Shown: piece after piece, positions 2,570 to 53,937 of the stretch
How the letters are laid out: each line of letters starts with the position of its first letter
Position numbering within the stretch: position 1 is the stretch's first letter
Assembly: GCF_035594765.1 (NCBI RefSeq)
Contig: NC_085843.1
Coordinates: forward strand, 95,209,971 to 95,273,970
Source: Anolis carolinensis
Taxonomy: Eukaryota
Direction: 5' to 3'
Length of the DNA: 64,000 bases
Notes under the pieces: model-generated
What the model was told of the DNA's origin: nothing
Database searches by the model: none
The model's input: only the letters and a program-made list of their open reading frames with translations
Position numbers and translations under genes: made by a program

Positions 2570-3260
2570 GGGCAGGAATGAAGCGGGCATTTCCCGGCCT
2601 TGTCCTGACACGGCTGCCTCGGCCTACCAAGAGCCTCCCCTTCCCCCTTTCCCTCCGAAGGCGACCCAAGCCGCCCCTCTTTCGCGCCCTGGAGCCCATT
2701 CCACAGAGACTAGGCCTCCTCAGGAGCGCGAGGTCTTCAGCCTGCCCTCCCTTCCCCTTCGGCCCACAGGATCCGCCTCAGGATCGCCTCCTCACCAAGC
2801 TACTCAGATCCTGCCGGGAAAGGTGCGGCTGCCCCAGAGTCACTCCCGCCTCGTCCCCCGCCATCTTGGTTGAAAAGGAAGTTAGGAGCCCGGAGAGCCT
2901 GCCTGACCCCTCTGCCAAGCAGGTCCCAGCGGAACCGCCAACACCGGCTCCTAGTCCCAGAAGATGTCAGAGGGTCCCCTAGGAAGGGGAATTTACGCGT
3001 GGGCGCTTTCCGGGTCTGGAGAGCGGCTTGGGAGAGTTCAGTTTTGGATCAGGCAGTGAGCTAGACAACTCCGCGAGGCCCCCGGGCTTGGCTGATGCAA
3101 CCGGCACTTGTGAAGAAAGGCGTGACTGGCGTGTGTGAGGAGGAGCAATGATCACAGGGGGAGGGGGCGTGACCTGGGGAAGAGGCGTGCCTCGCGAGCT
3201 GTGATATCATAGAACGTATTATTCGATGTGGGCGGTGCCCTCAGAAGCCCCGCCTCTTAT
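2570..3260 (-). promoter_or_regulatory. EIF2S3 CpG-island promoter with GC boxes and a pyrimidine tract just upstream of the ATG
   Basis: Local GC/CpG enrichment around exon 1; CTTCCTTTTC (minus) at 2881-2872; GGGCG/CCCCGCC boxes ~3160-3255. Confidence 0.75.
2796..2864 (-). CDS. EIF2S3: eIF2 gamma coding exon 1 (MAGDEAGVTLGQPHLSRQDLSSL)
   Basis: ATG at 2864 in caagATGGCGG context, gtgag donor at 2795; 69 nt; matches the eIF2-gamma N-terminus. Confidence 0.96.
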
Positions 3261-6974: not shown

Positions 6975-7720
6975 GTTGTTTATTTGTTCAGTTGCTTCCA
7001 ACTCTTCGTGACCTCATGGATCAGCCCACACCAGAGCTCCTTCGGCCATTGCCACCCACAGCTCCTTCAAAGATAAGCCAGACACTTCAAGGATACCATC
7101 CATCTATCTTGCCCTTGGTTGGCCCCTCTTCCTTTTTCCTTCCATTTTCCACAGCATCATCTTCTCTAAGCTTTCCTGTTTTCTCATTATGTGGCCAAAG
7201 TACTTCATCTTGGCCTCTAATGTTCTTTCCTCCAGTGAACAGTCGGGTATTATTTCCTGAAGAATGGACTGGTTGGATCTTCTTGTGGGCCAAGGCACTC
7301 TCAGGATTTTCCTCCAGCACCAGAGTTCAAAAGTGTCTATCTTCCTTCGCTCAGTCTTCCTTGTGTTCCAGCTCTCGCACCCATAGGTTACTACGGGGAA
7401 TACCATTGCTTCAACTATGCAGACCTTTGTTGCCAGTGTGATGTCTCTACTCTTCACTATTTTATCGAGGTTGGTCATTGCTCTCCTCCCAAGAATTTAA
7501 TGTCTTCTGATTTTCTGGCTGCAGTCTGCGTCTGCGGTAATTTTCGTGCCTAGAAAGTCTGTCACTACCTCCACATTTTCTCCTTCTACCTGCCAGTTAT
7601 CAATCAGTTGCCATAATCTTGGTTTTGCACCTTTTTTTCACCTTGTTTATAAGGCTCCTCAGCTCCTCCTCGCTTTCAGCCATCGAAGTGGTATCATCTG
7701 CATATCTAAGGTTGTTAATG
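6975..7720 (-). mobile_element. RTE-BovB LINE 3' fragment
   Basis: Minus-strand peptides NLRYADDTT, VVTYGCESW, KIDTFELWCWRKILRVPW; (caa)n-like tail. Confidence 0.9.
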
Positions 7721-7789
7721 TGGACTATTTCGGAGCCTTTCCCCACCTGATTTAATATATGACCCACAAGGAACAGAAAAAAGAAAAAT

Positions 7790-8460
7790 AGGGCGGGAAA
7801 CATGATGACAATGGGTGTCTGAGGGAAGCCCGCCGCGGATTGGCCGAGGAGGAAGTGTTTGCGCGCTGAGCGGCAGGCGCGGCGGCCAATAGGGGCAGGA
7901 TGCGGGAAGGGGCCCTTTGCAGAGGGCGCAGATTGGGCGGCGCGAGGGAGGCGGGCCAGCGGCTTTTACGAGGCAACGGCAGCGCCAGCGAATGGGGCGG
8001 CTGGCCTGTGTGAGGCGGCGCCGTCGTCGGTGGCGTTCTCCTCAGAAGCAGCAGCAACAGCAACAGCAGCAGCGCTCGGAGCTGCCCGTCGTGTTCATGG
8101 AGGCTCCTCCTCCTCCGGCCTTGCCTACAGGTGGCGGCGGAAGTGACGGTCAGTGTGGGATGCTTGCCGTTGGGGGAAGATGGCGGCGGTGGCGGAGGCT
8201 GTGCTAGGCAGAGACGGAGGTAAACAACGGAGCGGGAAGGGAGGCTGAGGCAGGGAGGAGCGGGTCCGGGGCCGAGAGGCCGCCCTTCCGCCAGGCTCCC
8301 GCCTCCTCTCTCCCCCGCCTTTATGTTTCCCAGAGAGGCCCCTCTCCTCACGGCCAGCGTCTCCGGCGATGCTGAGAGGTAGGTGCCGCTCTTCGCCCCC
8401 TCCTTTGTTGTCGTGCCCGTGTCCCCTCAGGTAGCTCATCCCTGCCCGATCCCTTATCAG
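7790..8460 (+). promoter_or_regulatory. KLHL15 CpG-island promoter and putative first exon (donor GAG/gtaaac at 8219/8220)
   Basis: High CpG; CCAAT/ATTGG boxes ~7840, 7886, 7932; ETS/CRE-like GCGGAAGTGACG ~8137; YY1/TISU GAAGATGGCGGC 8176-8187. Confidence 0.8.
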
Positions 8461-8753
8461 GCGCCTTGCCTTTTTTTTTTTTTACTTTCTCCTTTCTAAA
8501 AGAGTGCAAGTACCATCGTAAAATTCACGCACTCGAGACCACTTGGACTGCTGTGGCATCAAGGGAGCAGTACAGTGTTTCAAAAAGACGGACCCAATTT
8601 CAAAGCAGTATACTTTCGTCATGGCAACATGTTTCAACTGCACACGGGGTTGCAAACGGTTGCCATTGGAAAATATATTATCAAGCCTTGTGTTGTGGGA
8701 TTGCCCCCTTAGAAATTGGGTCCAGGAGCTGTTTGTGTGCTGGGAGAGGCATC

Positions 8754-8754
<1 letters not shown>

Positions 8755-8807
<53 letters not shown>
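8755..8807. repeat. (AAT)n microsatellite, about 17 units
   Basis: Seen directly; explains the poly-I and poly-N ORFs. Confidence 0.95.
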
Positions 8808-8896
8808 GTTTTATTTATTCCCCGCCACCATCTCCCAGAAGGACTCGGGGCAGGTTACAGAAGCATATACAGCACCATAACACATAATAACACAGG

Positions 8897-9158
8897 TTTT
8901 TTTCCCGTGTCAGGAGCAACTTGAGAAACTGCAAGTCGCTTCCGGTGTGAGAGAATTGGCCGTCTGCAAGGACGTTGCCCAGCAGACGCCCGGATGTTTG
9001 ATGTTTTACCACCCTTGTGGGAGGCTTCTCTCACATACCCGCACAAGGAGCTGGAGCTGACAGACGAGAGCTCACCCGCTTCCCGGGTTTGAATCCCCGA
9101 CCTTTCGGTCAGCAGTCCTGCAAGCACAAGAGTTTAACCCATTGCACCACCAGGCTCC
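8897..9158 (-). mobile_element. tRNA-derived poly(A) SINE nested in an L2 3' fragment (~8808-9512)
   Basis: Reverse complement of the 4311/55383 family; flanks resemble the L2 3' end (gggggccaccaccaagaaggccct). Confidence 0.8.
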
Positions 9159-9763
9159 AAAAATAGAGGTAAAATTACATCACATATTAAACAATGATAA
9201 CAGCAGTTAATATAAAAACTACATATTACAAAAATCCAATTTAAAAATCAATAAAACACAGGACAAATTGCCTAAAACAAATAATACAGCTTCCCAGCCA
9301 TGGCCCAATTCAACCATTAAAGTGCTAGTGACAATATTAAATTGTTTGATTCTTAGATTAGCAGATGTCTTAATCATATCCAAATGATTGTCTTTAGCTC
9401 CTTGCGAGCCATGTCTTTAGCTCCTTGCGAAAACATTGTAATGTGGGGGCAAGCCTAATATCCTTGGGGAGGGCATTCCAAAGCCAGGGGGCCACCACCA
9501 AGAAGGCCCTTGTCTAGCAGTAATCACTTGAAACTGTATGCCACACCCTTTCAAGTGGTAAGAATTTCATTCTTGGGTGGTTAACTGAGAGATACAGTGA
9601 TTTCAAATCAGGTCCATCTTTTTGAAACACCCTATAGTTTGTTGAGGCATCATCACTCTTTAGCGGAGAAAGCTAAAGGCCATGTAAAACGTACTTATAC
9701 TTAGGCGATCTCTAGTTGTCTGAGTATGATGGCCTTCCAAGTGTAGTGTCTTGGTGGTTAATA

Positions 9764-11245
9764 CTGTGTTTCTCCGAAAATAAGACATCCTCAAAAAATA
9801 AGACCTAGTAGAGATTTTGTGGAAATGCAAAATATTAGACATCCCCCGAAAGTAAGACCTAGGAGGAGGAAGCCACTGCCGTCAGCGCCTGTGGCGCGAA
9901 AGAGGAAGGAAAGGCACCTGCCTTACCGTCCTTCTCCTTTGCCTTCCACGGCAGTGGCAACAGCTCCCTCCTCCTCCGCCTTCCTCAGTGGGTGCTGCGC
10001 GAAGAAGGGGAGATGGGGCTGAGGCCTGGCATGAGAGAGAAGCCCGACCCATGGCGTTCCTCGCCAGGTAGATGTCCCTGCCACCGAGGGACTAGGCAGA
10101 GAAAGACCCGACTGTCCAGCCCCTTCCCTCATTCCCCCGCTCCCTGGGAGGCCCTGCCGCGCACTCATAACTAGCCTTTGCCAGATTTCTCCCAAGTCTT
10201 CATCCACTCAGCAAAGAGCGCCGTCCCTGTTGCCGCCACCATCTTCCCTGTCTGGTGCTGGAAGCGTCCGGATGTATGAGCAGCAGCCAGGCAAGCAAGA
10301 AGGGGCCCACTGCATCTTCCTTGATGGAAGCGCCACCGCCAAGGAAGGCGCGGTGGGCCCCTTGCTTGCTTGCCTGCTTGCCTGCTGCTTGTACATCCGG
10401 CACTTCCAGCACCAGATGGGGAAGATAGTGGCGGCAACATGGAAGGGTGCTACCTGCTGAGTGGATGAAGACTTGGGAGAAATCCGGCGAGGGCGAGTAA
10501 TTAGTGTGGGGCAGGGCCTCCCGGGGAGCAGGGGAGGGAGGGAAGGGGCTGGATGGTCGGGTCTTTGAGCCCCTTGGTGGCAGGGACATCTACCTGGCGA
10601 GGAATGCCATGGGTCGGGTTTCTCTCTCATGCCAGACCTCAGCCCTATCTCCCCTGCCAGTCTCCAGATCCAGTTTGTCTGCTTCAAACCAAATTATCTT
10701 GCAGTGTAGACTCATACCATCCAGGCCAAAGCAGATCATCTGGAGTCAGAAACCTGAATTCTGTGACAGTTTAGACCAGGCCTGGTCCACCTTGGGTCCT
10801 CCAGGTGTTTTGGACTCCAACTCTCACAATTCCTAACAGTGGGAGTTGAAGTCCAAAACACCTAGAGGGCCGAAGTTGGCCCAGGCCTGGTTTAGACTCA
10901 TACCATCCACATCAAAGCAGATAATCTAGATCCAGAAACCTGGATTCTATGACAGTTTAGACTCATGCACTTTAAGGCAGATACCATATCATATGCTTCA
11001 AAACAGATAATCTGGATTCAGAAACCTGTTTTCTATGAGAGTTTAGATTCATATCATCCACTTCAAAGCAGATATATGGTTATGCTGGATTGTGATGACA
11101 ACTCTTTACAAAATGTTCATTTTTTTTGTTCAACAATAAACGTGAATTCTTCACGAAAAAATAAGACATCCCTGAAAATAAGACCTAGCACACCTTTGGG
11201 AGCAAAAAATAATATAAGACCTGTCTTATTTTCGGGGAAACAGGG
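9764..11245. mobile_element. Long copy B of the CCGTGTTTCCCCGAAAATAAGAC Tc1/mariner family, carrying a GC-rich palindrome, a minisatellite and a nested hAT MITE
   Basis: TIRs with TA flanks at 9762-9763 and 11246-11247; ends homologous to copies A and C, interior different. Confidence 0.85.
10777..10889. mobile_element. hAT MITE
   Basis: caggcctgg...ccaggcctg termini; perfect 8-bp TSD gtttagac (10769-10776, 10890-10897). Confidence 0.9.
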
Positions 11246-11279
11246 TACGTAGGTGACTATAGAGCCCTATTCTTGATCT

Positions 11280-11845
11280 ACATGTTCTTCCACAGTGAGG
11301 AATCAGTTTTCAGCCGACCAGGGTTGGCTTGACATGCCTTCCTCTTGGCACGCTTCTCCCTTTTGCCGTCCATTTGTGCCTCTTCAAATTGCACAGCACT
11401 GCTGGTCACAGCTGACCTCCAGCTAGAGTGCTCAAGGGCCAGGACTGCCCAGTTCTTGTTGTCTATGCCACAGTTTATAAGGTTAGCTTTAAGACCATAT
11501 TTAAATCTCTTCCTGTCCACCAACATTCTGTTTTCCATTCTTGAGTTGGTAGTATACTAACTGCTTTGGGAGACGGTGATCGGGCATTCGGACAACGTGG
11601 CCTTTCAGTCCAGTGGAGTTGATGGCATAGGAGCATCGCTTCAATGTTGGTGGTCTTTGCTTCTTCCAGCATGCTGACATTTGTCCGCAATGCTGATGGA
11701 ATCATCCCAGGAGTTGAGTGATGTTTGTAGACAGTCCACATTTTGCAGACATATAACAGGATTGGGAGGACAATAACTTTATAAACAAACACCTTGGTAT
11801 CCCTACAAATGTCCCAATCCTCAAACACTCTCTGCTTCATTCGGA
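11280..11845 (-). mobile_element. RTE-clade LINE 3' fragment (not BovB)
   Basis: Decayed RT C-terminal peptides TKVFVYKVIVLPILLY, LEEAKTTNIEAMLL, WRSAV. Confidence 0.8.
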
Positions 11846-12573
11846 AACTGCAACTCCCATCATTCCATAGCACTGAGCATGTAAAACTGCAACCCCCATC
11901 ATTCCATAGCATTGAGCTATAGTAGCTCAAGTGGTGTCACACTGTATCCATTCTACAGTTTTAATCCCTAAAATGAACATTCATGCTGAGTCAGTTTACT
12001 CTTCTCACATTCATCCCCTATATTTTGGAGAAATAGGGACAGTTTGATTGAGGAGTCTGAGAGGACAACACTGTTACAGAATTGAAGGGTAGTGATGTAT
12101 TTTATGTGTTGCGGGGGGGTGGTTCTGCTACTCCTACTTAATATTTTGTAAAATCTCTGGCTGGCAGGTATCTTTCCCTCTCTGCTGTTCTGATGTCTTT
12201 AAGGGTATTGTGATGATCCTGTCTTCTTCTTTCTAATTCCTCACTTGATAAAGAGGCTGGGGAAAAGATGGGCACTATGGTGATGTGAGCACTATAGTGA
12301 TGTCTCTAGAAATATAGCATATCTAATTGCCCAGTTGATTTTTGTACTTCAGAAATCTTCCACCCTTACAATTGTCCATGGTGGCTGGGACCTCTGGTGG
12401 TTAAAGTTGAAAACATCTGGAAGATCAAGGATTGAGAACCACCATACGGTACTTACAAGGCACATAGTTTGGACAAGATTGTTGCAAACCTCTCTCTCGG
12501 TCATATACAAATTAAGAATTGTTTACTTTGAAAGATCCTTTGCTTTAGTTCTTGTGATACATAATACCACATT

Positions 12574-12745
12574 GGAGAGTCAGCATGGTGTAGTGGTTTG
12601 AGTGTTGGACTATGCTACTGGGAGACTGGAGTTTGAATCCCTGTTTAGCCATGGAAACCCACTGGGTGAATATGGATGAGTTTTCTCTCAGTCTGGCCAA
12701 GGAAGGCCTATAACAGATCATAAGTCAGAAATGACTTGAAGGCAT
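12574..12745 (+). mobile_element. Old tRNA-derived (MIR/CORE-like) SINE; similar copy at ~30380-30570
   Basis: A box tggtgtagtgg, B box gagtttgaatccc. Confidence 0.6.
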
Positions 12746-13478
12746 ATATGTCAATAAAATACAGTACGCCCTCTATGTCCATGGTTCTGCATCATAAATT
12801 CAACCAGCTATGGTTTGAAAATATTCAGAAAAACATCCCCAACAGCAAACCTATTGTCCTGATCAGTGTTGTAGTAGAAGTTGATGAAACAGTGATAGCA
12901 TCTTGTATGGTGCATTGTTCTTGAGTCCCTTTTGGTTATAAAATGTTATTAGTGTCAATAGAACTTTTCTTTTATTGTCTCATTCTCAAAGGCCATTTAA
13001 AATTTAGCCTTCAAATGTCTTCAAATGACCAGTAGACTGAGAAGTAATTTTAGAAAATTAAAATGGAATAAATTCAAATTGACCATATAGCTTTTTAAAA
13101 AAAGAAGAATGGCACACTCTACCTTGGACTCAGGTTTCATGTTTTTTACTCTGAATTGAAAAATCCAGATATTATTACAGTCTAATTTTAGCACATTAGA
13201 TGGATAAATGGTACAAGCTTTTTGTCTGTGATTTGATTATGCAGCACCTAGAGATTCCAAGATATTGTTCACTGAGAAGAGTAGAAACCATGGCTTCTTC
13301 TTTTAGGAGAAAAGCTAGCCACAATCTTTCGTCTTGGATGTCATGTTGAACAAACAGGAACAAAGTAGGAACAGTCAAGAACTGAGCATGAGCTCACTCT
13401 TCATCACCCATAAGGAAAGATTTTCTGGAGGAATGATTTTCTGGAGGAATGACATAGTGATAACAGCACTATGTCATA

Positions 13479-13898
13479 CCGCGTTTCCCCGAAAATAAGA
13501 CAGTGTCTTATATTAATTTTTGCTCCCAAAGATGCACTAGGTCTTATTTTCAGGGGATGTCTTATTTTTCCATGAAGAAGAATTCACATTTATTGTTGAG
13601 CAAAAAATTTGAACATTTATTATCTACTGTACAGTAGTTGTCATCACAAACCAGCATAACCAGACAAACTGTGAATCCTATCAAGAATTTCTTGTTACTA
13701 CTAATATTTCCATGTACAACACTCTATGGTACGTACATTTACTGATCCTGCATGCTCTGGTGTTCTGTTCGTTGGGCATGCTTCCAAACAAAAACTTTGC
13801 TAGGTCTTACTTTCGGGGGAGGCCTTATATTTAGCAATTCAGCAAAACCTCTAGTAGGTCTTATTTTCTGGGGATGTCTTATTTTAGGGGAAACAGGG
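13479..13898. mobile_element. Tc1/mariner non-autonomous element, copy C
   Basis: TIRs ccgcgtttccccgaaaataagac / gtcttattttaggggaaacaggg with TA flanks. Confidence 0.9.
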
Positions 13899-15101
13899 TA
13901 GTAATGACTTTTACTATACTGCTGTGTGTAATAACATTAAGGAAACATTTGTAAGATTCCTCTCCAACTGTAATTAGTTTTTTTTTCTGAGTTTGAATTT
14001 AAAGGTCCCCCTTTCTATTGATAAAGGGTTACTCTGTTGTTAGTATTTTAAGTGCTGTCAACCCTATGGCACTTCAAGAATTTGAGAACTTTTATTTTAA
14101 AACATTGTTGATTTAACTTCCCTAAACTGAACATCTGCAAACATTGTCAATGTTTAAAAAATGTAAAATGGTTCACAGACCTAATAGTAATATGTTTACA
14201 GAAACATAAGCAATTAGTGTATTTACTCGAGTCTAGTGCACCATTGAATTTAATGCGCACCTCAGTTTTCAAGACCCTGAAACCAAAAAAGTATTTGCTG
14301 GCAAATGTAATTACTCTGTCATAAATTTCTTACCATCCTGTAGGTATGATTTTTTTTGGTCAAAGGTTTTATATTAGCCATGTTTCCAAAATCAGTCTTA
14401 AATCCTGGTTTTTAAATCTGCTTAATAAACAACACTAATTAATATTAGCAACACTACAGATGATTGTCAACATGAACTTTAGATATAGTTCTCTTTTGTA
14501 TTTTTCTCCAGTAAACATTGTCTTCAGGTACACACATCAGATATAAGATATTGGATTTTCAGAGGAAGTGTAGGTGGCTATTTAAAAGCAGTGTAGGTGG
14601 TTATTTAGGTCTTCCTAGCCCAATTTGACATTCCTAATTCACATTCAGCAGTGGTTATATGTCCCAGTGCCTTACATGGCTTTTTTACAGGCCATGTGAA
14701 ACTACAGCCCTTCTGAAAGACTGATAACTGCAGAAATTACATCTGCACACCCATACTTTCTCTTATTACTGTAAACTTTGCCTCATTTTATTAGGGGCTT
14801 CTGTCCAGGGCGTTCAGCAGTAGATCATTCAATGCGCTTACAGTCATTGTCACTTTAATAAGCAAAATATTTTGTAATAACAATTTAGTAGCCTAATTCT
14901 GTATTCCTTTTAGCTGATAAGTGGTTGTTGGTCTTAACCTGTAATCTTGAATTGGATTTTCATTATTTGCAAACATTTGTTTCTTTGACAGAACATAGTA
15001 TTATTCACTATTTTATCCTGCCTTATTTGATCTCTGACGACACATATTTTCAAAGTCAGTATGACACAACTGACCTTTTTTTTTGCTTTGGCTGTTTTCA
15101 G

Positions 15102-15144
15102 GAACAGCTGTGGCAAAGATACAAGTCTAGAGATGTTGCTATAG
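15102..15144 (+). other. Candidate 43-nt KLHL15 5'UTR exon
   Basis: Branch-point-like ctgac at 15070, long polypyrimidine tract, cag acceptor, TAG/gtaaac donor; no transcript evidence. Confidence 0.55.
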
Positions 15145-16268
15145 GTAAACAGTTTTTAAAAATCCTTTATCATTCCTCTGTGATTGATTTTGCTATGCTT
15201 TAAAAGGAATTGTTATGGTTTTAAATCAATTAGAACATATTTCTTTGATAAATGTTGTCTTCTTGAAAATAGGTCAAACAGATGTCATAATAATAGCAGT
15301 TCAAAAATAGAACAAATGTAATTGCCAAAAACATAAATGCACCCACTATTTAATTTAATTTAATACAGGTTAAAGCATGACTTCACTTTTGTCCTATCTG
15401 TGATTCATTTTATTAAATGTATACATGAAATCATCTAGTTTCTGAGAGGAATCCTTTTGAGACTTGGTGACAACATCAAAGATACTTTCAAATCAGTCTG
15501 TGCTAATATATTGTTTCTCTAGACTTTTTAATACATTCATTAAAATCCCTTCAAATGCTGTCATAAGACACTTAATTTAGAAATGCTTTCTGAGGAATGA
15601 GACATAATAAGTTTTATGGATATGTCCATAAAGTGTGTGTGGTTTTTTAAACCCATTTATCTGCTCAGTTGAGCCTGTATTAGTCATTCATGGCACAGAG
15701 ACAACATAAAAAACAGCAAAACAGCAAGTGATCCGTATTTGTCATAGGTGAACAGGAGATGGCTGACTTCATGTTTTTCTTGTAGTGTTCTGTTCCTGTG
15801 TAACAGTATGCTTTGCTACAGAAAGAATTGATGTGCTGACTCTTATATACTTGATGCTTGGCAGAAGATCCATATCAACTGCTTTATATTGGTTTGTTGC
15901 TTCTTGTGTATTTTTATAGGATTATCATATCTTGGTAGCATTTGTCTAGACATTCCCAAATCTGATAGCATCATACATTGTGAAACTGGAATTATACAAT
16001 GTACATTTAAAATGGTTATGCATCAAGATTTGTCTATTCTGTGTTCAGGCATTTTTTTTCTAACTCCTGAAAATGTCAGAGGTCTTGACAGTGATATTCT
16101 AGTCAACATCTAGTCTCACCTTTTGCTACTCTACCCAGAGAAGGGTTCCTTTTTTAAATACAAGTTTTGGTACAGTACTTGCATTGACCTATGGATAAGT
16201 CAACCTAGTTTTTTGTGTAAAGTAAATTGTTTACAACACCTTCCCTCCCCCCTCCAGTCTCCCTAGCT

Positions 16269-16376
16269 CAGTGGTTCTCAACTTATGGGTCCCCAGATGT
16301 TTTGGTCTTCATCTGGCTGGGATTTCTGGGAGTTGTAGGCCAAAACACCTGGGGACCCATAGATTGAGAACTACTG
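16269..16376. mobile_element. hAT MITE; related copies 18308-18429, 33771-33892, partial 59759-59820
   Basis: cagtggttctcaac...gagaactactg palindrome; degenerate 8-bp TSDs (ccctagct/ccgtagtt; ctttaaag/ctttaagg at the 33.8-kb copy). Confidence 0.8.
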
Positions 16377-16568
16377 CCGTAGTTTAAGCCTGATTTTAGT
16401 TAATATGTGTAATGCAAGAGATTGGGAATAAAGGGTTTTAAATGTTGTTTTAAATGCTGTAAGTTATTTTCACAAATAAGTTTCTTTCCACAGCAAGAAT
16501 CCTCATAAGGTTATTGTTACAGTTACTTTGAATTGTAACATTTTTTATTTACATTTTTCAGGTGATTC

Positions 16569-17273
16569 ATGGCAGGGGACGTGGAAGGATTTAGTTCCTC
16601 CATCCATGACACCAGTGTCTCTGCTGGGTTCAGAACACTGTATGAGGAAGGATTGCTTCTTGACGTCACTCTTGTTATTGAGGATCACCAGTTTCAGGCT
16701 CATAAAGCATTGCTTGCCACCCAAAGCGATTACTTCCGGATTATGTTCACTGCTGATATGAGGGAACGAGATCAGGACAAAATCCACTTGAAAGGTCTGA
16801 CTGCTACTGGCTTCAGTCATGTTCTACAGTTTATGTACTATGGAACCATTGAACTGAGTATGACCACCGTTCATGAGATCCTGCAAGCTGCCATGTATGT
16901 CCAGCTTATTGAAGTGGTGAAGTTCTGCTGTTCTTTTCTCTTAGCAAAGATCTGCTTGGAAAACTGTGCAGAAATTATGAGACTTTTAGATGACTTTGGT
17001 GTAAACATCGAGGGAGTCAGAGAAAAACTGGATTCCTTTTTGTTAGAAAATTTTGTGCCTCTCATGGCTAGACCAGACTTCTTGTCCTATCTGAGCTTTG
17101 AAAAGCTTATGAATTATTTGGATAATGATCGTCTGAGCAGGTTCCCAGAGATAGAGCTCTACGAGGCTGTTCAGGCTTGGCTACGACATGATAGAAGACG
17201 CTGGAGGCATACCGACACCATTATTCAGAACATCAGGTTTTGTTTGATGACACCATCCAGTGTTTTTGAAAAG
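16569..17273 (+). CDS. KLHL15: Kelch-like protein 15, coding exon 1 (BTB + BACK, 235 aa); exon starts at 16562
   Basis: MAGDVEGFSSSIHD...LLDVTLVIEDHQFQAHKALLATQSDYFRIMF; AAG/gttggt donor; phase 0. Confidence 0.97.
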
Positions 17274-23372: not shown

Positions 23373-26300
23373 TCATTCATTAAAAGCTTGCGTGCACAAC
23401 CATGTCTTTAAGGCTTTCCTGAAGCCTAGGAGAGTTGGTATCTGTCTTATGTTGCTGGGGAGGGTTTTCCATAGCCAAGGAGCCACCACCGAGAAGGACC
23501 TGTCCCTCGTTCCCACCAGCCTTACCTGCGAGGCTGGTGGGACCTAGAGCAGGGCCTCCCCCGATGATTTAAGAGTTCTAGAAGGCTCATAGGGGGAGAT
23601 ACGTTCGGACAGGTAAGGTGGGCCAGAACCATTTAGGGCTTTGTAGGTCAAAACCAGCACTTTGAATTGGGCTCGGTAGCATATTGGCAGCCAGTGGAGC
23701 TGACTCAACATGGGAGTAGTACGCACCCTGTAAGCCGCTCCTGTTGTTAGTCTGGCTGCTGCCCGTTGTACTAGTTGGAGCTTCCGAGCCGTCTTCAAAG
23801 GCAGCCCCACATAGAGCGCATTGCCGTAGTCCAAACGGGATGTAACCAGAGCGTGGACCACCGTGGCCAAGTCAGACCTCCCAAGGTACGGGCGCAGCTG
23901 GCGCACAAGTCTTAGTTCTGCGAAGGCTCCCCTGGCCACCACCGAGACCTGGGGCTCCAGGCTCAGCGATGAGTCCAGGAGAACCCCCAGACTGCGAACC
24001 TGTGTCTTCAGGGGAAGTGCGACCCCGTCCAACACAGGCTGTAACCCTATACCCTGTTCAGCCCTGCGACTGACCAGGAGGACCTCTGTCTTGTCTGGAT
24101 TAAGTTTCAATTTGTTCGCTCTCATCCAGTCCGATACAGCGGCCAGACACCGGTTCAGGACCTGAACAGCCTCCTTAGTGAGAGGTGGGAAGGAGTGACA
24201 GAGCTGGACATCATCTGTGTACAGATGACACTGCACCCCGAAACTCCTGATGATCTCTCCCAGCAGCTTCATGTATATGTTGAACAACATGGGGGACAGT
24301 ATTGACCCCTGCGGGACCCCACAAGTCAATGGTTGTGGGGCCGAGCAGGTGTCCCCCAGTGACACCATCTGGGAACAACCCTCCAGGAAGGTCTGGAGCC
24401 ACTGCAGAACAGTACCCCCGAGACCCATCCCAGCAAGGCGTCCCAGAAGGATACCGTGATTGACGGTATCGAAGGCTGCTGAGATGTCCAGCAGAACCAG
24501 CAGGGACACACTCCCCCTGTCCAGTTCCCGGCGTAGATCATCGACTAAGGCAACCAAGGCTGTCTTGGTACCATGCCCCTGCCTGAAGCCAGACTGTGCC
24601 GGATCCAGAAAATCAGTATCTACCAAGAATGCCTGGAGTTGTGCGGCCACCACACGTTCCACAACCTTGCCCAAAAAGGGGAGATTGGAAATAGGCAGAT
24701 AGTTCTCCAATTGAGTGGGGTCCAGTGATGGCTTCTTCAACGGTGGTTTGATAACAGCCAATTTAAGGCTCGCTGGAAATACGCTTTCCCGAAGGGAGGC
24801 ATTCACCACCACCTTCACCCACTCAGCCAATCCCCCTCTGGCTTCTCTCACCAGCCAGGATGGGCAGGGGTCTAGGATGCATGTGGTAGCCCTCACCTCT
24901 CCAAGCACCTTGTCCACATCCTCAGGCTGAACCAATTGAAACAAATCCATCAAAATAGGACAAGCAGGTGCACTTGTTACATCCTCGGAGACTGCCGTTA
25001 ATATGGTGTCAAATCCAGAGCAGATCAAAGCGACTTTGTCTGCAAAGAACCGAGCAAATGCTTCACAGCGGGCTGCCGAGTTGTCAGGGATCCCGTCCCA
25101 AAGGACGGGATATAACAAACCTCTGACAACTTGGAACAGCTCCGCCGGACGGTTCTGTGTGGACGCAATATTAGCTGCAAAGAAAGAGTTCTTTGCAGCA
25201 TCTATTGCCGCGGCATAAGCCTTAAGGTAAGAGCCCAGCTGTGTTCGGTTTGACTCGTTCGGTTTTGAACACCACACGCGCTCTAGTCCCCCCCTCTTCT
25301 TTTGCTTCATCACTGCCAACTCCTCAGTAAACCAAGGAGATGGTTTAGCTCGGGTACTCGAGAGGGGACGTTCCGGAGCGATCGTGTTTATTGCCCTAGT
25401 CATCTCCCGATTCCACAGAGCGACAAGGGCATCGACAGAATCACCAGCCGAGGTGGCGGGAAACTCCTCAAGAGCCATCAGGAAGCCGTCCGGATCCATG
25501 AGCCTCCTGGGGCGGACCATTTTAATGGGTCCTCCACCCCTGCGGAGGTTAGGGAGCGCAGCAAGTCTAAACCTGATCAGGTGATGGTCGGTCCATGGCA
25601 ACGGAGCGATGGTAAGCTCCTCCACACCGCCATTTTCCTCCCACCCCTGACAGAAAACCAAGTCAAGCGTGTGCCCAGCTCTGTGGGTGGGACCAGATAC
25701 TCGTTGGGACAGCCCCATGGTTGCCATGGAGGCCATGAAGTCCTGAGCCACACCTGAAAGGTTGGTCTCGGCATGGACATTGAAGTCCCCGAGCACAATG
25801 AGCTGTTGAGACTCCAATTCCAGGCCAGAGACCACACCCCCTAGCTCTGGCAGGGAGACTGTAGTGCAGCAGGGTGGTCGGTACACTAGCAGTCTGTCCC
25901 GGTTACCTACCCTCAGGTGGACACATTTGAACAAGGTTGACTGTGGGATGGGGCACCTGGTCAGGGGGATTGACTCCTTATAGATTACTGCGATACCACC
26001 TCCCCTCCCTCCAGATCTTGGTTGGTGCTGCATGGTGTAACCTGGCGGACAAAGCTGGGTGAGGTTAACCCCCCCAGCCTCGTCCAGCCAGGTCTCCGTT
26101 ATGCACGCCAGGTCTGCCTGTTCATCCAAGATAAGATCCTGGATGATAGCAATTTTTCCATTGACAGACCTGGCGTTCAACAGTACCACCTTTAACCTGG
26201 AGGGACCGCCAGCCTGGGCACCCAAGTTTACCATATCAAGAGGCCGTTTTAAATCTATAAGAACTCTTTTTTCCCCCTAGGCTGAATTATATTATGCCTC

Positions 26301-34373: not shown

Positions 34374-35483
34374 GTGAAAACATCTGAATTTTATCGTTAC
34401 TCCCGGCAATTGCGGCATGAGGTGGAACAAGCTATGAATTACTTCCACAGTGTGCACCAGCAGCCTTTGATGGAAATGAAATCAAATCGCATCCGTTCTG
34501 CCAAACCCCAGACTGCAGTATTTAGAGGAATGATAGGACACAGCATGGTAAATAATAAGATCCTTCTCTTACACAAGCCAAGGGTCTGGTGGGAGCTAGA
34601 AGGCCCACAAGTACCTTTACGACCAGACTGCCTTGCTATTGTCAATAACTTTGTATTTTTATTGGGTGGGGAAGAATTGGGACCAGATGGCGAATTTCAT
34701 GCTTCTTCAAAAGTGTTCAGATATGATCCGAGGCAAAACTCTTGGTTGCGGATGGCAGACATGTCTGTGCCACGTTCAGAATTTGCTGTTGGTGTTATTG
34801 GAAGGTACATCTATGCAGTGGCTGGAAGGACAAGAGATGAAACATTTTACTCAACTGAACGTTATGATATAACAGAAGATAAATGGGAATTTGTGGACCC
34901 CTATCCGGTGAATAAATATGGACATGAAGGAACTGTTCTTGGCAACAAGTTATATATCACTGGCGGAATAACATCCTCTTCCACCTCCAAGCAGGTCTGT
35001 GTGTTTGATCCCAGCAAGGAAGGGACTGTGGAGCAGCGAACAAGGAGGACTCAAGTGGTCACCAATTGTTGGGAAAACAAATGTAAAATGAATTATGCAA
35101 GATGTTTTCACAAGATGATTTCTTATAATGGCAAACTTTATGTTTTTGGAGGCGTCTGTGTAATCCTAAGGGCCTCTTTTGAGTCTCAAGGGTGCCCTTC
35201 CACAGAGGTTTATGATCCAGATTCTGATCAGTGGACTATTTTGGCTTCTATGCCAATTGGAAGAAGTGGTCATGGTGTAGCTGTCCTGGACAAACAGATA
35301 ATGGTTCTTGGGGGACTTTGTTACAATGGTCACTACAGTGATTCAATTCTCACTTTTGATCCTGAAGACAATAAATGGAAAGAAGATGAATATCCAAGAA
35401 TGCCTTGCAAGCTAGATGGCTTACAAGTTTGTAGCCTGCACTTTCCTGAGTATGTACTGGAACATGTTAGGCGATGCAGCTAA
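34374..35483 (+). CDS. KLHL15: KLHL15 final coding exon (Kelch repeats, 369 aa + stop); total 604 aa
   Basis: tag acceptor then GTG (Val, not a start codon); Kelch GG/Y/W repeats; ends EHVRRCS*. Confidence 0.97.
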   Translation: MKTSEFYRYSRQLRHEVEQAMNYFHSVHQQPLMEMKSNRIRSAKPQTAVFRGMIGHSMVNNKILLLHKPRVWWELEGPQVPLRPDCLAIVNNFVFLLGGEELGPDGEFHASSKVFRYDPRQNSWLRMADMSVPRSEFAVGVIGRYIYAVAGRTRDETFYSTERYDITEDKWEFVDPYPVNKYGHEGTVLGNKLYITGGITSSSTSKQVCVFDPSKEGTVEQRTRRTQVVTNCWENKCKMNYARCFHKMISYNGKLYVFGGVCVILRASFESQGCPSTEVYDPDSDQWTILASMPIGRSGHGVAVLDKQIMVLGGLCYNGHYSDSILTFDPEDNKWKEDEYPRMPCKLDGLQVCSLHFPEYVLEHVRRCS

Positions 35484-51321: not shown

Positions 51322-53937
51322 GGGGCCCGCTCATCAGGCGGGGCACACACTCGATCTAGTCTTTGTGGCAGACGGTGGTTTGGTTGGAGTGGAAGTCCAA
51401 AACATTCTTCCATTGTCATAGTCTGACCATCATCTGATCAGTTTAAGACTAACCGTGACTTCCAACCTTCGCAGGGGTGGTGGACCGATTAAGATGGTCC
51501 GCCCCAGGGGACTAATGGATCCGGATGGCTTCGAGGTCTCTTGGGGATCTTCCTGTCATGGAGGCTGATGTTCCTGTCGACGCCCTGATGGATCGCTATA
51601 ATGGCAAGATGCTCAGGGCATTAGACACGATCGCCCCTGAGCGTCCACTTTCGTTGCGTAGAGTTACGTCAGCTCCTTGGTTCTCTGAGGAGCTGGCTGT
51701 GATGAAACCCAAGAGAAGAGGACTAGAGTGCCACTGGAGGAGAACTCGTGACGTCTCCGACTGAGCACAGGGTAGAGGCCTATTAAGGCCTACTCCATGG
51801 CTTTGCGGGCAGCCAGGAAGACTTTCACGACTGCCCGCATAGCGTCTGCAACTATTAGATGGTCAAAGTTGTTCTGGGTTGTCGGGGAGCTCCTGCACCC
51901 CCCTGAGGTGGGGGACCTCTCTGAGGACTCGGCAACTCGGTGCAGCGAGTTCGTGCACCATTTTGCCAACAAAGTCACTTGGATACGTTCCGACTTGGAT
52001 TCCAGTTTAAATGCAATGCCAGGGGAGGTAACCGAGGCACCTGTCTGTCAGATTTTGTGGGATTCGTTCCAGCTTGTTTGCCCTGAAGACGTAGACGGGA
52101 TCCTTGGGGCTGTGAGGATGACCATTTGTGCTCTGGACCCTCGCCCTTCCTGGTTGGTCAAACTGGCCAATGGCGGGCTGGTTGATTGGTTTGTGGCTAT
52201 CATAAATACCTTGCTGATCCAAGGGATATTCCCAATATGCTTTAAACAGGCTATAGTAAGACCGATACTGAAAAGGACCTCCCTTGACTCTTCAGTTTTG
52301 GGTAACTACAGACCAATTTCTAACCTCCTGTTTTTGGGCAAGGTACTAGAGCAGATGGTCGCCTCCCAGCTCCAGGGATATCTAGAGGACACCAACTTCT
52401 TTGACCAGTCACAGTCTGGCTTCAGGCCTGGGCACAGTACCGAGACGGCTTTGGTCGCCTTGGTGGATGACCTCAGCAGGGAACTGGACAGGGGGAGAGT
52501 GACCCTGCTGGTTCTCTTGGACATCTCAGCGTCTTTCGTTACCATCAACCATGGTATCCTTCTGGGACGGCTCTCCAGGATGGGCCTTGGGGGTACTGCT
52601 TTGCAGTGGCTCTAGTCCTTCCTGGAGGGCCGCTCCCAGATGGTGAAGCTGGGGGACACCTGCTTGGACCCCTGGCCATTGTCCTGTGGGGACCCACAAG
52701 GTTCTATTCTGTCCCGCATGCTTTTTAACATCTACATGAAACCACTGGGTGAGGTCATCTGGAGTTTTGGAGTTCAGTGCCATTTCTACGCAGATGACAC
52801 TCAACTCTACTACTCTTTTCCACCAAAATCCAAGGAAGCCCCTCGGATTCTGGACCAGTGCCTGGCTGCTGTGCTGGGCTGGATGAAAAAGAACAAGCTG
52901 AAGCTTAATCCTGACAAGACAGAGGTCCTCCAGGTCAGTCGCTCGGACGATCGGGGCATAGGGTGGCAACCTGTGCCTGACGGGGTCGCATTCCCCCTGA
53001 AAGCGCAGGTCCGCAGTTTGGGGGTCTGCCTGGACTCATTGCTGATGCTTGATGCTCAGGTGTTGGCAGTGGCCGGGAGGGCCTTGTGCGCCAGCTGCGA
53101 CCATACCTTGTGAAGTCTGACTTGGCCATGGTGGTCCATGCCTTAGTTACCTCCAGGATGGATTACTGCAATGCTCTCTACATGGGCTGCCCTTGAAGAT
53201 GGCCCGGAAATTACAACTAGTCCAACGATCGGCAGCCAGACTGCTAACTGGAGCAACTTACAGGGAGCAGTCAACCCCTGTTTAAGGAGCTCCATTGGCT
53301 GCTGTTCACTTTCCAGTTCCTTTCCAGGTACTCACTTACAAAGCCCTGAATGGCTTGGGACCCGTCTACCTTTGCGACCGCCTTTCCCCCTATGAGCCTG
53401 CACAATCTCTTAGATCCTCAGGGGAGGCCCTCCTCTCATTCCCTTCACTATCGCAGGCTCGGCTTGCTGGAACGAGGAAGAGGGCCTTCTCTGTAGTGGC
53501 CCCCCAGCTTTGGAATTCCCTCCCTAGGGAGATTAGATTGGCCCCAACCCTGTCTGCCTTTATCAAACAGCTGAAGACATGGCTATTTCAGTGTGCATTT
53601 GAACAATCACCAACATGATAGACCCATTTACCGAGACATTACTTCTTAACACTTTACTTCCTTCCTACCTTACCCTATCCCATATTACCCCGTTAACTCT
53701 CTGACACTTGATAAGGCACTTTATTAAAAACTTTTGATATTTTTTTTATATGCTCGACTCTTTTTATTTTTAGTGGTTGATGTTGTATCATTACCCATTT
53801 TTTCTGGTTTTATGGGTTTTACTTTATTTAAAATGTTAAATTATTTATTTTATTTGATTGATGTTATCATTGTTTTTGTTTTTATATCCATTGTAATTGT
53901 TTTATTCTGCTTTTGTTTTGGGCATTGGGCAATAAAG

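What the first reader, a model, noticed from the sequence alone, without database searches (positions are those of the whole stretch)
8176..16761. Perfect-TISU upstream AUG in KLHL15 exon 1 with a splice-dependent uORF or overlapping ORF
Seen: GAAGATGGCGGC (8176-8187) matches the TISU consensus SAASATGGCGGC exactly. Its AUG (8180) opens MAAVAEAVLGRDG-G and runs 40 nt to a donor at 8219. Spliced directly to the acceptor at 16562 it is out of frame with KLHL15 but stays open for 66 more codons (GDSWQGTWKDLVPP…GLCSLLI*, stop ends 16761), a 79-aa ORF overlapping the first 193 nt of the CDS. With the candidate 43-nt exon (15102-15144) included it becomes a 22-aa uORF (…GTAVAKIQV*) ending 21 nt before the KLHL15 AUG. 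Established: TISU supports efficient cap-proximal initiation; overlapping uORFs block re-initiation while short uORFs allow it; the motif is also a YY1 site. Inference: 5'UTR splicing may act as a translational switch for this CUL3 adaptor and/or yield an unannotated microprotein.
Basis: partly seen in the sequence, partly recalled or inferred. Interest (0 to 1): 0.72.

Follow-up and report, generated by a model that had tools for sequence, protein, structure and literature searches.

The report
Ordinary YY1/TISU upstream AUG of KLHL15
A common promoter motif in front of this reptile's KLHL15 gene contains an extra start codon that would likely act as an ordinary brake on translation; the proposed splicing switch is untested and the hidden mini-protein is likely a by-product of the real gene's codons.

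Summary
The arithmetic is right: a 12/12 TISU match at 8176, a 79-aa overlapping frame on direct splicing, a 22-aa uORF with the 43-nt piece. But the motif is common (1,269 genome matches against 20 for the reversed control) and lies in a CpG island behind an ETS motif, a layout found 12 times; 36% of human TISU genes start their CDS downstream (PMC2518114). No splice junction was seen. The 43-nt piece ranks 11th of 267 candidate pairs, and a stronger donor lies at 8378. The +1 frame is open in lizard, a bird-like and a mammal-like sequence, closed in a salamander and a fish, has about 5% chance odds and shows no extra synonymous constraint (16/60 against 50/158), so a microprotein is unlikely. 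KLHL15 is absent from the 7,264-ORF human Ribo-seq table. Weak hints keep a switch alive: an annotated mouse-lemur upstream start in frame with the CDS, and contig breaks around the 43-nt piece. The scan had not noted this on other DNA.

The parts
7820..8400 (.). CpG-island promoter of KLHL15 (GC 0.62-0.68, CpG obs/exp 0.7-1.0), no TATA box; CCAAT and GC boxes at 7791-7995
   Evidence: edges approximate
8138..8148 (+). ETS motif running into a CRE half-site (name recalled); likely just upstream of the start sites
   Evidence: ETS 15-45 nt before the YY1/TISU core occurs 12 times in the genome, 0 for the control
8150..8154 (+). initiator-like TCAGT; a start at A8152 would put the motif at +25 and its AUG at +29 (predicted, not mapped)
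   Evidence: consensus recalled
8160..8207 (+).
8176..8187 (+). exact TISU / YY1 motif; AUG at 8180-8182 (A at -3, G at +4)
8180..8219 (+). 13 codons + 1 nt from the TISU AUG to the candidate donor (score 7.0; real CDS donor 6.0); unspliced it ends after 22 aa
   Evidence: use of the donor not shown
8295..8378 (+). best-scoring rival leader exon (acceptor 8295 or 8334, donor 8378 score 9.8); holds AUG 8369 in the same +1 frame
   Evidence: not shown in transcripts
15102..15144 (+). candidate 43-nt leader exon, single copy; holds the stop of the 22-aa uORF (ends 15130) and its own 3-codon uORF from AUG 15133 ending 7 nt before the main AUG
   Evidence: weak contig hints
16562..17273 (+). first coding exon of KLHL15: 7 nt of leader with an in-frame TGA two codons before the main AUG at 16569 (T at -3, G at +4), then BTB and BACK
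16570..16761 (+). +1 frame open for 63 codons over the CDS start; stop 512 nt before the last junction
34374..35483 (+). last coding exon of KLHL15 (kelch repeats)

Best explanation
The motif at 8176 is likely a YY1-type promoter element of the KLHL15 CpG-island promoter, and its AUG is likely an ordinary upstream AUG that would lower KLHL15 translation on transcripts starting before it, with no regulated switch and no useful peptide. Shown: the motif, its place behind an ETS site, the frames. Inferred: start sites are spread around the motif; mRNAs that carry the AUG and splice in phase 1 straight to the coding exon make a 79-aa out-of-frame product and are poor, probably decay-prone messages; KLHL15 comes from mRNAs that start later, that carry a stop-containing leader exon, or whose ribosomes enter at AUG 8160, pass the TISU AUG and re-initiate. 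The open +1 frame is mainly inherited codon choice in a nearly invariant BTB region.
For: Motif common and enriched: 1,269 against 20; ETS then motif layout 12 against 0; neighbour EIF2S3 starts in the same core. PMC2518114 (results parts 1-2 read): motif at +5 to +30, 36% of 554 genes start their CDS downstream, two tested promoters have start sites on both sides of it, mutation lowers transcription. +1 frame open for 63 or more codons in 4.8% of 5,000 recodings with the gene's own codon use, and a stretch of about 90 open codons lies deep inside the same CDS. Synonymous differences lizard against bird-like L002: 16 of 60 codons under the overlap, 50 of 158 after it, p=0.51. Frame ends at about codon 32 in Pleurodeles. 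No KLHL15 row in the Ribo-seq ORF table of PMC10032668, where 8 other KLHL rows exist. The published human KLHL15 core promoter has no such motif in -70 to +52.
Against: Under the overlap 0 of 8 stop-prone codon pairs make a +1 stop against 12 of 26 further down, p=0.03, though chosen after the fact. The frame is also open in the bird-like (73 codons) and mammal-like (63 codons) sequence; chance retention in the bird was put at 0.15-0.5. The annotated mouse-lemur protein starts 80 codons upstream with Met-Ala-Ala, so an upstream start in similar context may be old. TISU was non-leaky in reporters, which makes an incidental AUG costly and asks for some escape route. Start site and junctions were not measured.
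Confidence: 0.55

Rival explanations
1. Splice switch: skipping the 43-nt exon gives a non-productive overlapping ORF and probably nonsense-mediated decay, inclusion shortens it to a uORF that allows re-initiation.
For: Frames work as stated. Splice scores 9.2 and 6.0 equal those of the real CDS exon, 8.8 and 6.0. Region single copy. In run X4 intron contigs stop at 15084 and restart at 15162; run X3 has cover in bin 15050-15343 and none in the bin before or after (weak, homopolymer runs lie at both breaks). +1 frame open in three amniote-type sequences. Lemur upstream start is in frame with the CDS, as the lizard one is with the exon included (1 in 3 by chance).
Against: No junction seen; X11 and X12 have no cover in that bin. 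Ten of 267 pairs score higher, led by 8334-8378. Inclusion adds a further AUG (15133) ending 7 nt before a weak-context main AUG, and leaves only 21 nt for re-initiation. No match to the exon in 1.68 kb of bird-like intron, 255 of 300 shuffles scoring as high (the bird exon could lie further up).
Confidence: 0.2
2. The motif works only as DNA (YY1 site): most mRNAs start downstream of 8180 or from a second first exon ending at 8378, so this AUG is seldom read.
For: Strongest donor of 7800-9000 is 8378 (9.8 against 7.0). TISU promoters have start sites downstream of the motif too. The human KLHL15 core promoter used in vitro lacks the motif and lies 100 nt or more before an acceptor-like sequence (reading of primers is my inference).
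Against: ETS and initiator-like elements point to starts at about 8150-8175, upstream of the AUG (inferred). A first exon ending at 8378 carries its own AUG 8369 in the same +1 frame, so it does not remove the problem.
Confidence: 0.2
3. The 79-aa overlapping frame encodes a functional microprotein.
For: Frame open for 63 or more codons in lizard, bird-like and mammal-like sequences, peptide 49 of 63 and 47 of 63 identical; hydrophobic last 11 residues.
Against: That identity simply mirrors third-position conservation of the main frame. No family above cut-off; no hit among 30-97 aa proteins; of 7 phmmer hits the two that are clearly this frame are a one-off chimeric contig product and a lone salamander gene model; the atlas hit is the BTB shadow of a wrong frame. 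End point differs in the bird-like sequence; N-terminus differs from the lemur's beyond three residues.
Confidence: 0.05

Closest known systems
TISU / YY1 element (Elfakess and Dikstein 2008, PMC2518114; abstract, introduction and results parts 1-2 of 6 read)
   Same: Exact consensus, TATA-less CpG promoter, ubiquitin-pathway gene, predicted position about +25; belongs with the 36% of motif genes whose CDS starts downstream.
   Different: Start site not mapped here; the AUG is not the CDS start; reptile, not human; what the AUG does in that 36% was not in the parts read.
Overlapping and short upstream ORFs of vertebrate mRNAs (PMC10123092, PMC3146882, PMC1888809 seen as listing and abstract start only; ATF4-type control recalled)
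   Same: Strong upstream AUG, out-of-frame overlap with the CDS in one form, short uORF in another; about half of animal mRNAs have uORFs (abstract of PMC10123092).
   Different: ATF4-type control has a short first uORF that ends before the inhibitory one; here the first uORF (8160) runs past the second AUG, and no stress control or isoform switch is shown.
N-terminally extended KLHL15 of fishes and mouse lemur (database annotations)
   Same: Upstream exons join 7 nt before the start Met; in 52 of 60 fish-set proteins and 1 of 47 tetrapod-set proteins they are read in frame.
   Different: Lizard and bird-like sequences have an in-frame TGA there, so no extension is possible; the upstream peptides do not align.

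Membership tests
TISU element | Consensus SAASATGGCGGC | tested here: met
   12 of 12 at 8176-8187
TISU element | Lies +5 to +30 from the transcription start | tested here: inconclusive
   ETS and initiator-like motifs predict +25 or less; contigs cannot show a start
TISU element | Non-leaky initiation at its AUG from a short leader | not testable with these tools
   needs reporter or initiation profiling
TISU element | YY1 binding and effect on transcription | not testable with these tools
   only the motif is seen; function taken from PMC2518114
Splice-dependent uORF switch | Both leader isoforms exist | tested here: inconclusive
   no junction among the 15 joints shown, 129 hidden; joints to the coding exon were outside the stretch laid
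Splice-dependent uORF switch | Alternative exon conserved or outstanding in splice strength | tested here: not met
   11th of 267 pairs; no match in 1.68 kb of one bird-like intron; one comparison only
Conserved-peptide uORF / functional alternative-frame protein | Extra constraint on the overlapped codons | tested here: not met
   16 of 60 against 50 of 158 synonymous differences, p=0.51; one species pair
Conserved-peptide uORF / functional alternative-frame protein | Frame kept open across relatives | tested here: inconclusive
   open in 3 of 3 amniote-type sequences, ended early in 1 salamander model; chance retention 0.15-0.5 for the bird
Conserved-peptide uORF / functional alternative-frame protein | Translation evidence | tested here: inconclusive
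   no KLHL15 row in the human table of PMC10032668; two newer catalogues not seen; no reptile data

The most novel reading that the evidence does not exclude
Amniote KLHL15 carries an old, non-leaky upstream start that is a remnant of the coding N-terminal exons still used in fish: a TGA placed two codons before the start Met turned the extension into a uORF, and the choice of middle leader exon now toggles the message between a decay-prone +1 overlapping ORF kept free of stops and a re-initiation-competent form, setting the dose of an X-linked intellectual-disability E3 adaptor.
Probability: 0.15. Interest if true: 0.55.

Novelty: new member of a known kind. Interest (0 to 1): 0.22.

Why it matters
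As it stands it is one more upstream AUG in a YY1/TISU promoter element, of which this genome has over a thousand exact matches. [quoted passage not shown]

Tried and rejected
Run search: no RNA holder listed on record; 14 holders are guessed RNA. Laying 4 of those runs on 7700-16500 was swamped by transposon contigs; no cover of 7994-8287 in any of the four, which is no evidence (GC-rich 5' end, filtered records); the cover in bin 8288-8581 is a steady 0.11-0.15 of the next, repeat-driven bin, so I did not count it for the 8334-8378 exon. Junctions to the coding exon remain untested. Word search with the +1 frame and with the lemur extension against shorter proteins: nothing. Lemur extension against the three forward frames of the lizard island: best 22 of 500 shuffles as high, three frames tried, low complexity, rejected. 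Atlas hit rejected as wrong-frame BTB signal. Five of the 7 phmmer hits (31-43% identity or no stretch) were not followed; one was viewed and is a repeat protein. L003 (fish-like) lacks codons 1-41, so it only shows a stop at codon 64; L004 (28% identity) was not used. Literature: KLHL15 + uORF gave 7 papers, by their titles reviews of micropeptides or unrelated; searches listed none on the KLHL15 leader; listings only. Not seen and able to bear on the human orthologue: the gene list of PMC2518114, the catalogue of PMC13010147, that of PMC13275300 (paper reader closed), PMC9757701 (not held). Splice scores use recalled textbook base frequencies and are rough. Earlier scan notes: none on this gene.
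Full report
Setting. The window is from a 1.85-Gb vertebrate genome. The gene is KLHL15: exons 16569-17273 and 34374-35483 give 604 aa, 596 of them equal to the snake Candoia aspera protein, with BTB and BACK domains above cut-off, so the organism is a squamate, likely a lizard (inference). EIF2S3 (name recalled from its sequence) lies head to head, start codon at 2864 on the minus strand, in the same AAGATGGCG core.

Observation. The motif is the single exact match in the window. Genome-wide the pattern has 621 + 648 matches against 14 + 6 for the reversed control: a real class of element, and a common one. It sits in a CpG island without TATA box, 38 nt after an ETS motif with a CRE half-site and 26 nt after an initiator-like TCAGT (names recalled). 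ETS followed by the core at 15-45 nt occurs 12 times in the genome, 0 times for the control, and 3 of the 11 other sites also show an ATG between the two, so the layout is an ordinary housekeeping promoter. A start at 8152 would put the motif at +25, inside the +5 to +30 range of PMC2518114. That paper also reports that 36% of 554 motif genes start their CDS downstream, that two tested promoters have starts on both sides of the motif, that mutation lowers transcription, and that the AUG is non-leaky in reporters.

AUG 8160 (G at -3) opens 15 codons in another frame and stops at 8207, past the TISU AUG; ribosomes entering there would skip it. The 43-nt piece holds its own AUG at 15133, three codons ending 7 nt before the main AUG, whose context is weak at -3. 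With rough matrices the 8219 donor scores 7.0, third in 7800-9000 behind 8378 (9.8) and 8430 (7.2); strong acceptors lie at 8295 and 8334; the 43-nt pair ranks 11th of 267 pairs, although its scores equal those of the real coding exon. Of nine leader forms computed, five leave a +1 overlapping ORF (from 8180 or 8369) and four do not, three of them through the 43-nt piece. The leader structure is therefore open, and the two-state picture is one of several.

Transcripts. Four RNA-like runs from four studies were laid on 7700-16500. Transposon contigs filled the tables; none of the 15 joints shown is a splice junction at the candidate sites and 129 were hidden. Two weak hints favour an exon near 15102-15144: X4 intron contigs end at 15084 and begin at 15162, and X3 covers only that bin among its neighbours, in single-copy DNA. 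Homopolymer runs at both breaks can explain the first, and X11 and X12 show nothing there. Junctions to the coding exon were not tested.

The overlapping frame. Recoding the protein 5,000 times leaves the +1 frame open for 63 or more codons in 4.8% (own codon use) or 2.1% (uniform) of trials; a stretch of about 90 open codons lies inside the last exon. A bird-like locus (L002, 234 of 235 residues equal to bird KLHL15) has the same acceptor and a +1 frame open for 73 codons; a one-off contig product joining dynein light chain 1 to this acceptor shows a mammal-type sequence (inferred from one diagnostic residue) open for 63 codons; a Pleurodeles gene model ends at about codon 32. Stop-prone codon pairs give 0 of 8 stops under the overlap against 12 of 26 below it (p=0.03, after the fact), and chance retention in the bird is 0.15-0.5. 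So there is a mild hint that stops are avoided, but no constraint on the peptide: synonymous differences are 16 of 60 under the overlap and 50 of 158 after it (p=0.51). No family or homologue supports a protein. The stop lies 512 nt before the last junction, which by the usual rule (recalled) would make a message read only in this frame a decay target.

Relatives of the upstream start. Among 47 tetrapod-set proteins only mouse lemur has an annotated extension, 80 aa starting Met-Ala-Ala; 52 of 60 fish-set proteins have one (the sets come from a search for longer proteins and clustered data, so they are not frequencies). Alternative fish N-termini converge three residues before the start Met, which fits the 7-nt leader of this exon; lizard and bird-like sequences have TGA there. 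The lemur start suggests that a mammal has an upstream AUG in similar context and in frame with the CDS, as here with the 43-nt piece, but the peptides do not align and Met-Ala-Ala is a common start. The human core promoter used in two in-vitro studies lacks the motif in -70 to +52, and KLHL15 is absent from the 7,264-ORF human table while 8 other KLHL rows are present; newer catalogues could not be seen.

Mechanism. Shown: motif, promoter layout, frames, lack of peptide constraint in one species pair. Inferred: a YY1-type element that supports transcription; its AUG dampens translation on messages that carry it; productive messages start later, include a stop-bearing exon, or are entered at 8160 with re-initiation 19-62 nt on. 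I put this static reading at 0.55, a regulated splice switch at 0.2, a DNA-only role at 0.2, a functional microprotein at 0.05.

Verdict. A new member of a known kind. No paper on the KLHL15 leader turned up (listings only), and the scan's earlier notes hold none. Interest 0.22; 0.55 if the conserved switch were shown.

Noticed in passing
window 16562-16571; proteins P0010-P0070, P0082: Fish KLHL15 proteins carry two alternative coding N-termini (9-10 aa or about 50 aa, the long one with a basic stretch) that join 7 nt before the start Met; lizard and bird-like DNA have an in-frame TGA there, and mouse lemur is annotated without it (80-aa extension). Looks like loss of an ancestral N-terminal extension in tetrapods.
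   Followed up: partly
P0110 (unnamed contig, 922 nt): Chimeric product of dynein axonemal light chain 1 joined in phase 1 to the KLHL15 coding-exon acceptor, read in the +1 frame; single record, fusion transcript or assembly artefact.
   Followed up: partly
window 2856-2867 (minus strand): EIF2S3 start codon lies in a near-TISU YY1 core, 5.3 kb from the KLHL15 motif, head to head; a 92/8-type contrast case where the AUG is the real start.
   Followed up: partly
window 10006-10655, inside 9758-11243: GC-rich 650-bp imperfect palindrome (arms 84-93% complementary) nested in a short inverted-repeat element; contigs skip 9758-11243 in 3 of 4 runs, which suggests an insertion absent from other copies or individuals; it carries a YY1-like word on each arm.
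   Followed up: no
window 8046-8075: Short imperfect CAG/CAA triplet run in the CpG island just upstream of the predicted start.
   Followed up: no
P0005, P0006: Two database models fuse KLHL15 to an APOO/MICOS domain (PF09769), probably read-through or mis-joined neighbours; that domain did not match this window in tblastn.
   Followed up: partly
window 23544-26276 (minus), 51776-53618 (plus): Long LINE-type endonuclease and reverse-transcriptase frames in KLHL15 intron and downstream; the first is open for 910 codons.
   Followed up: no
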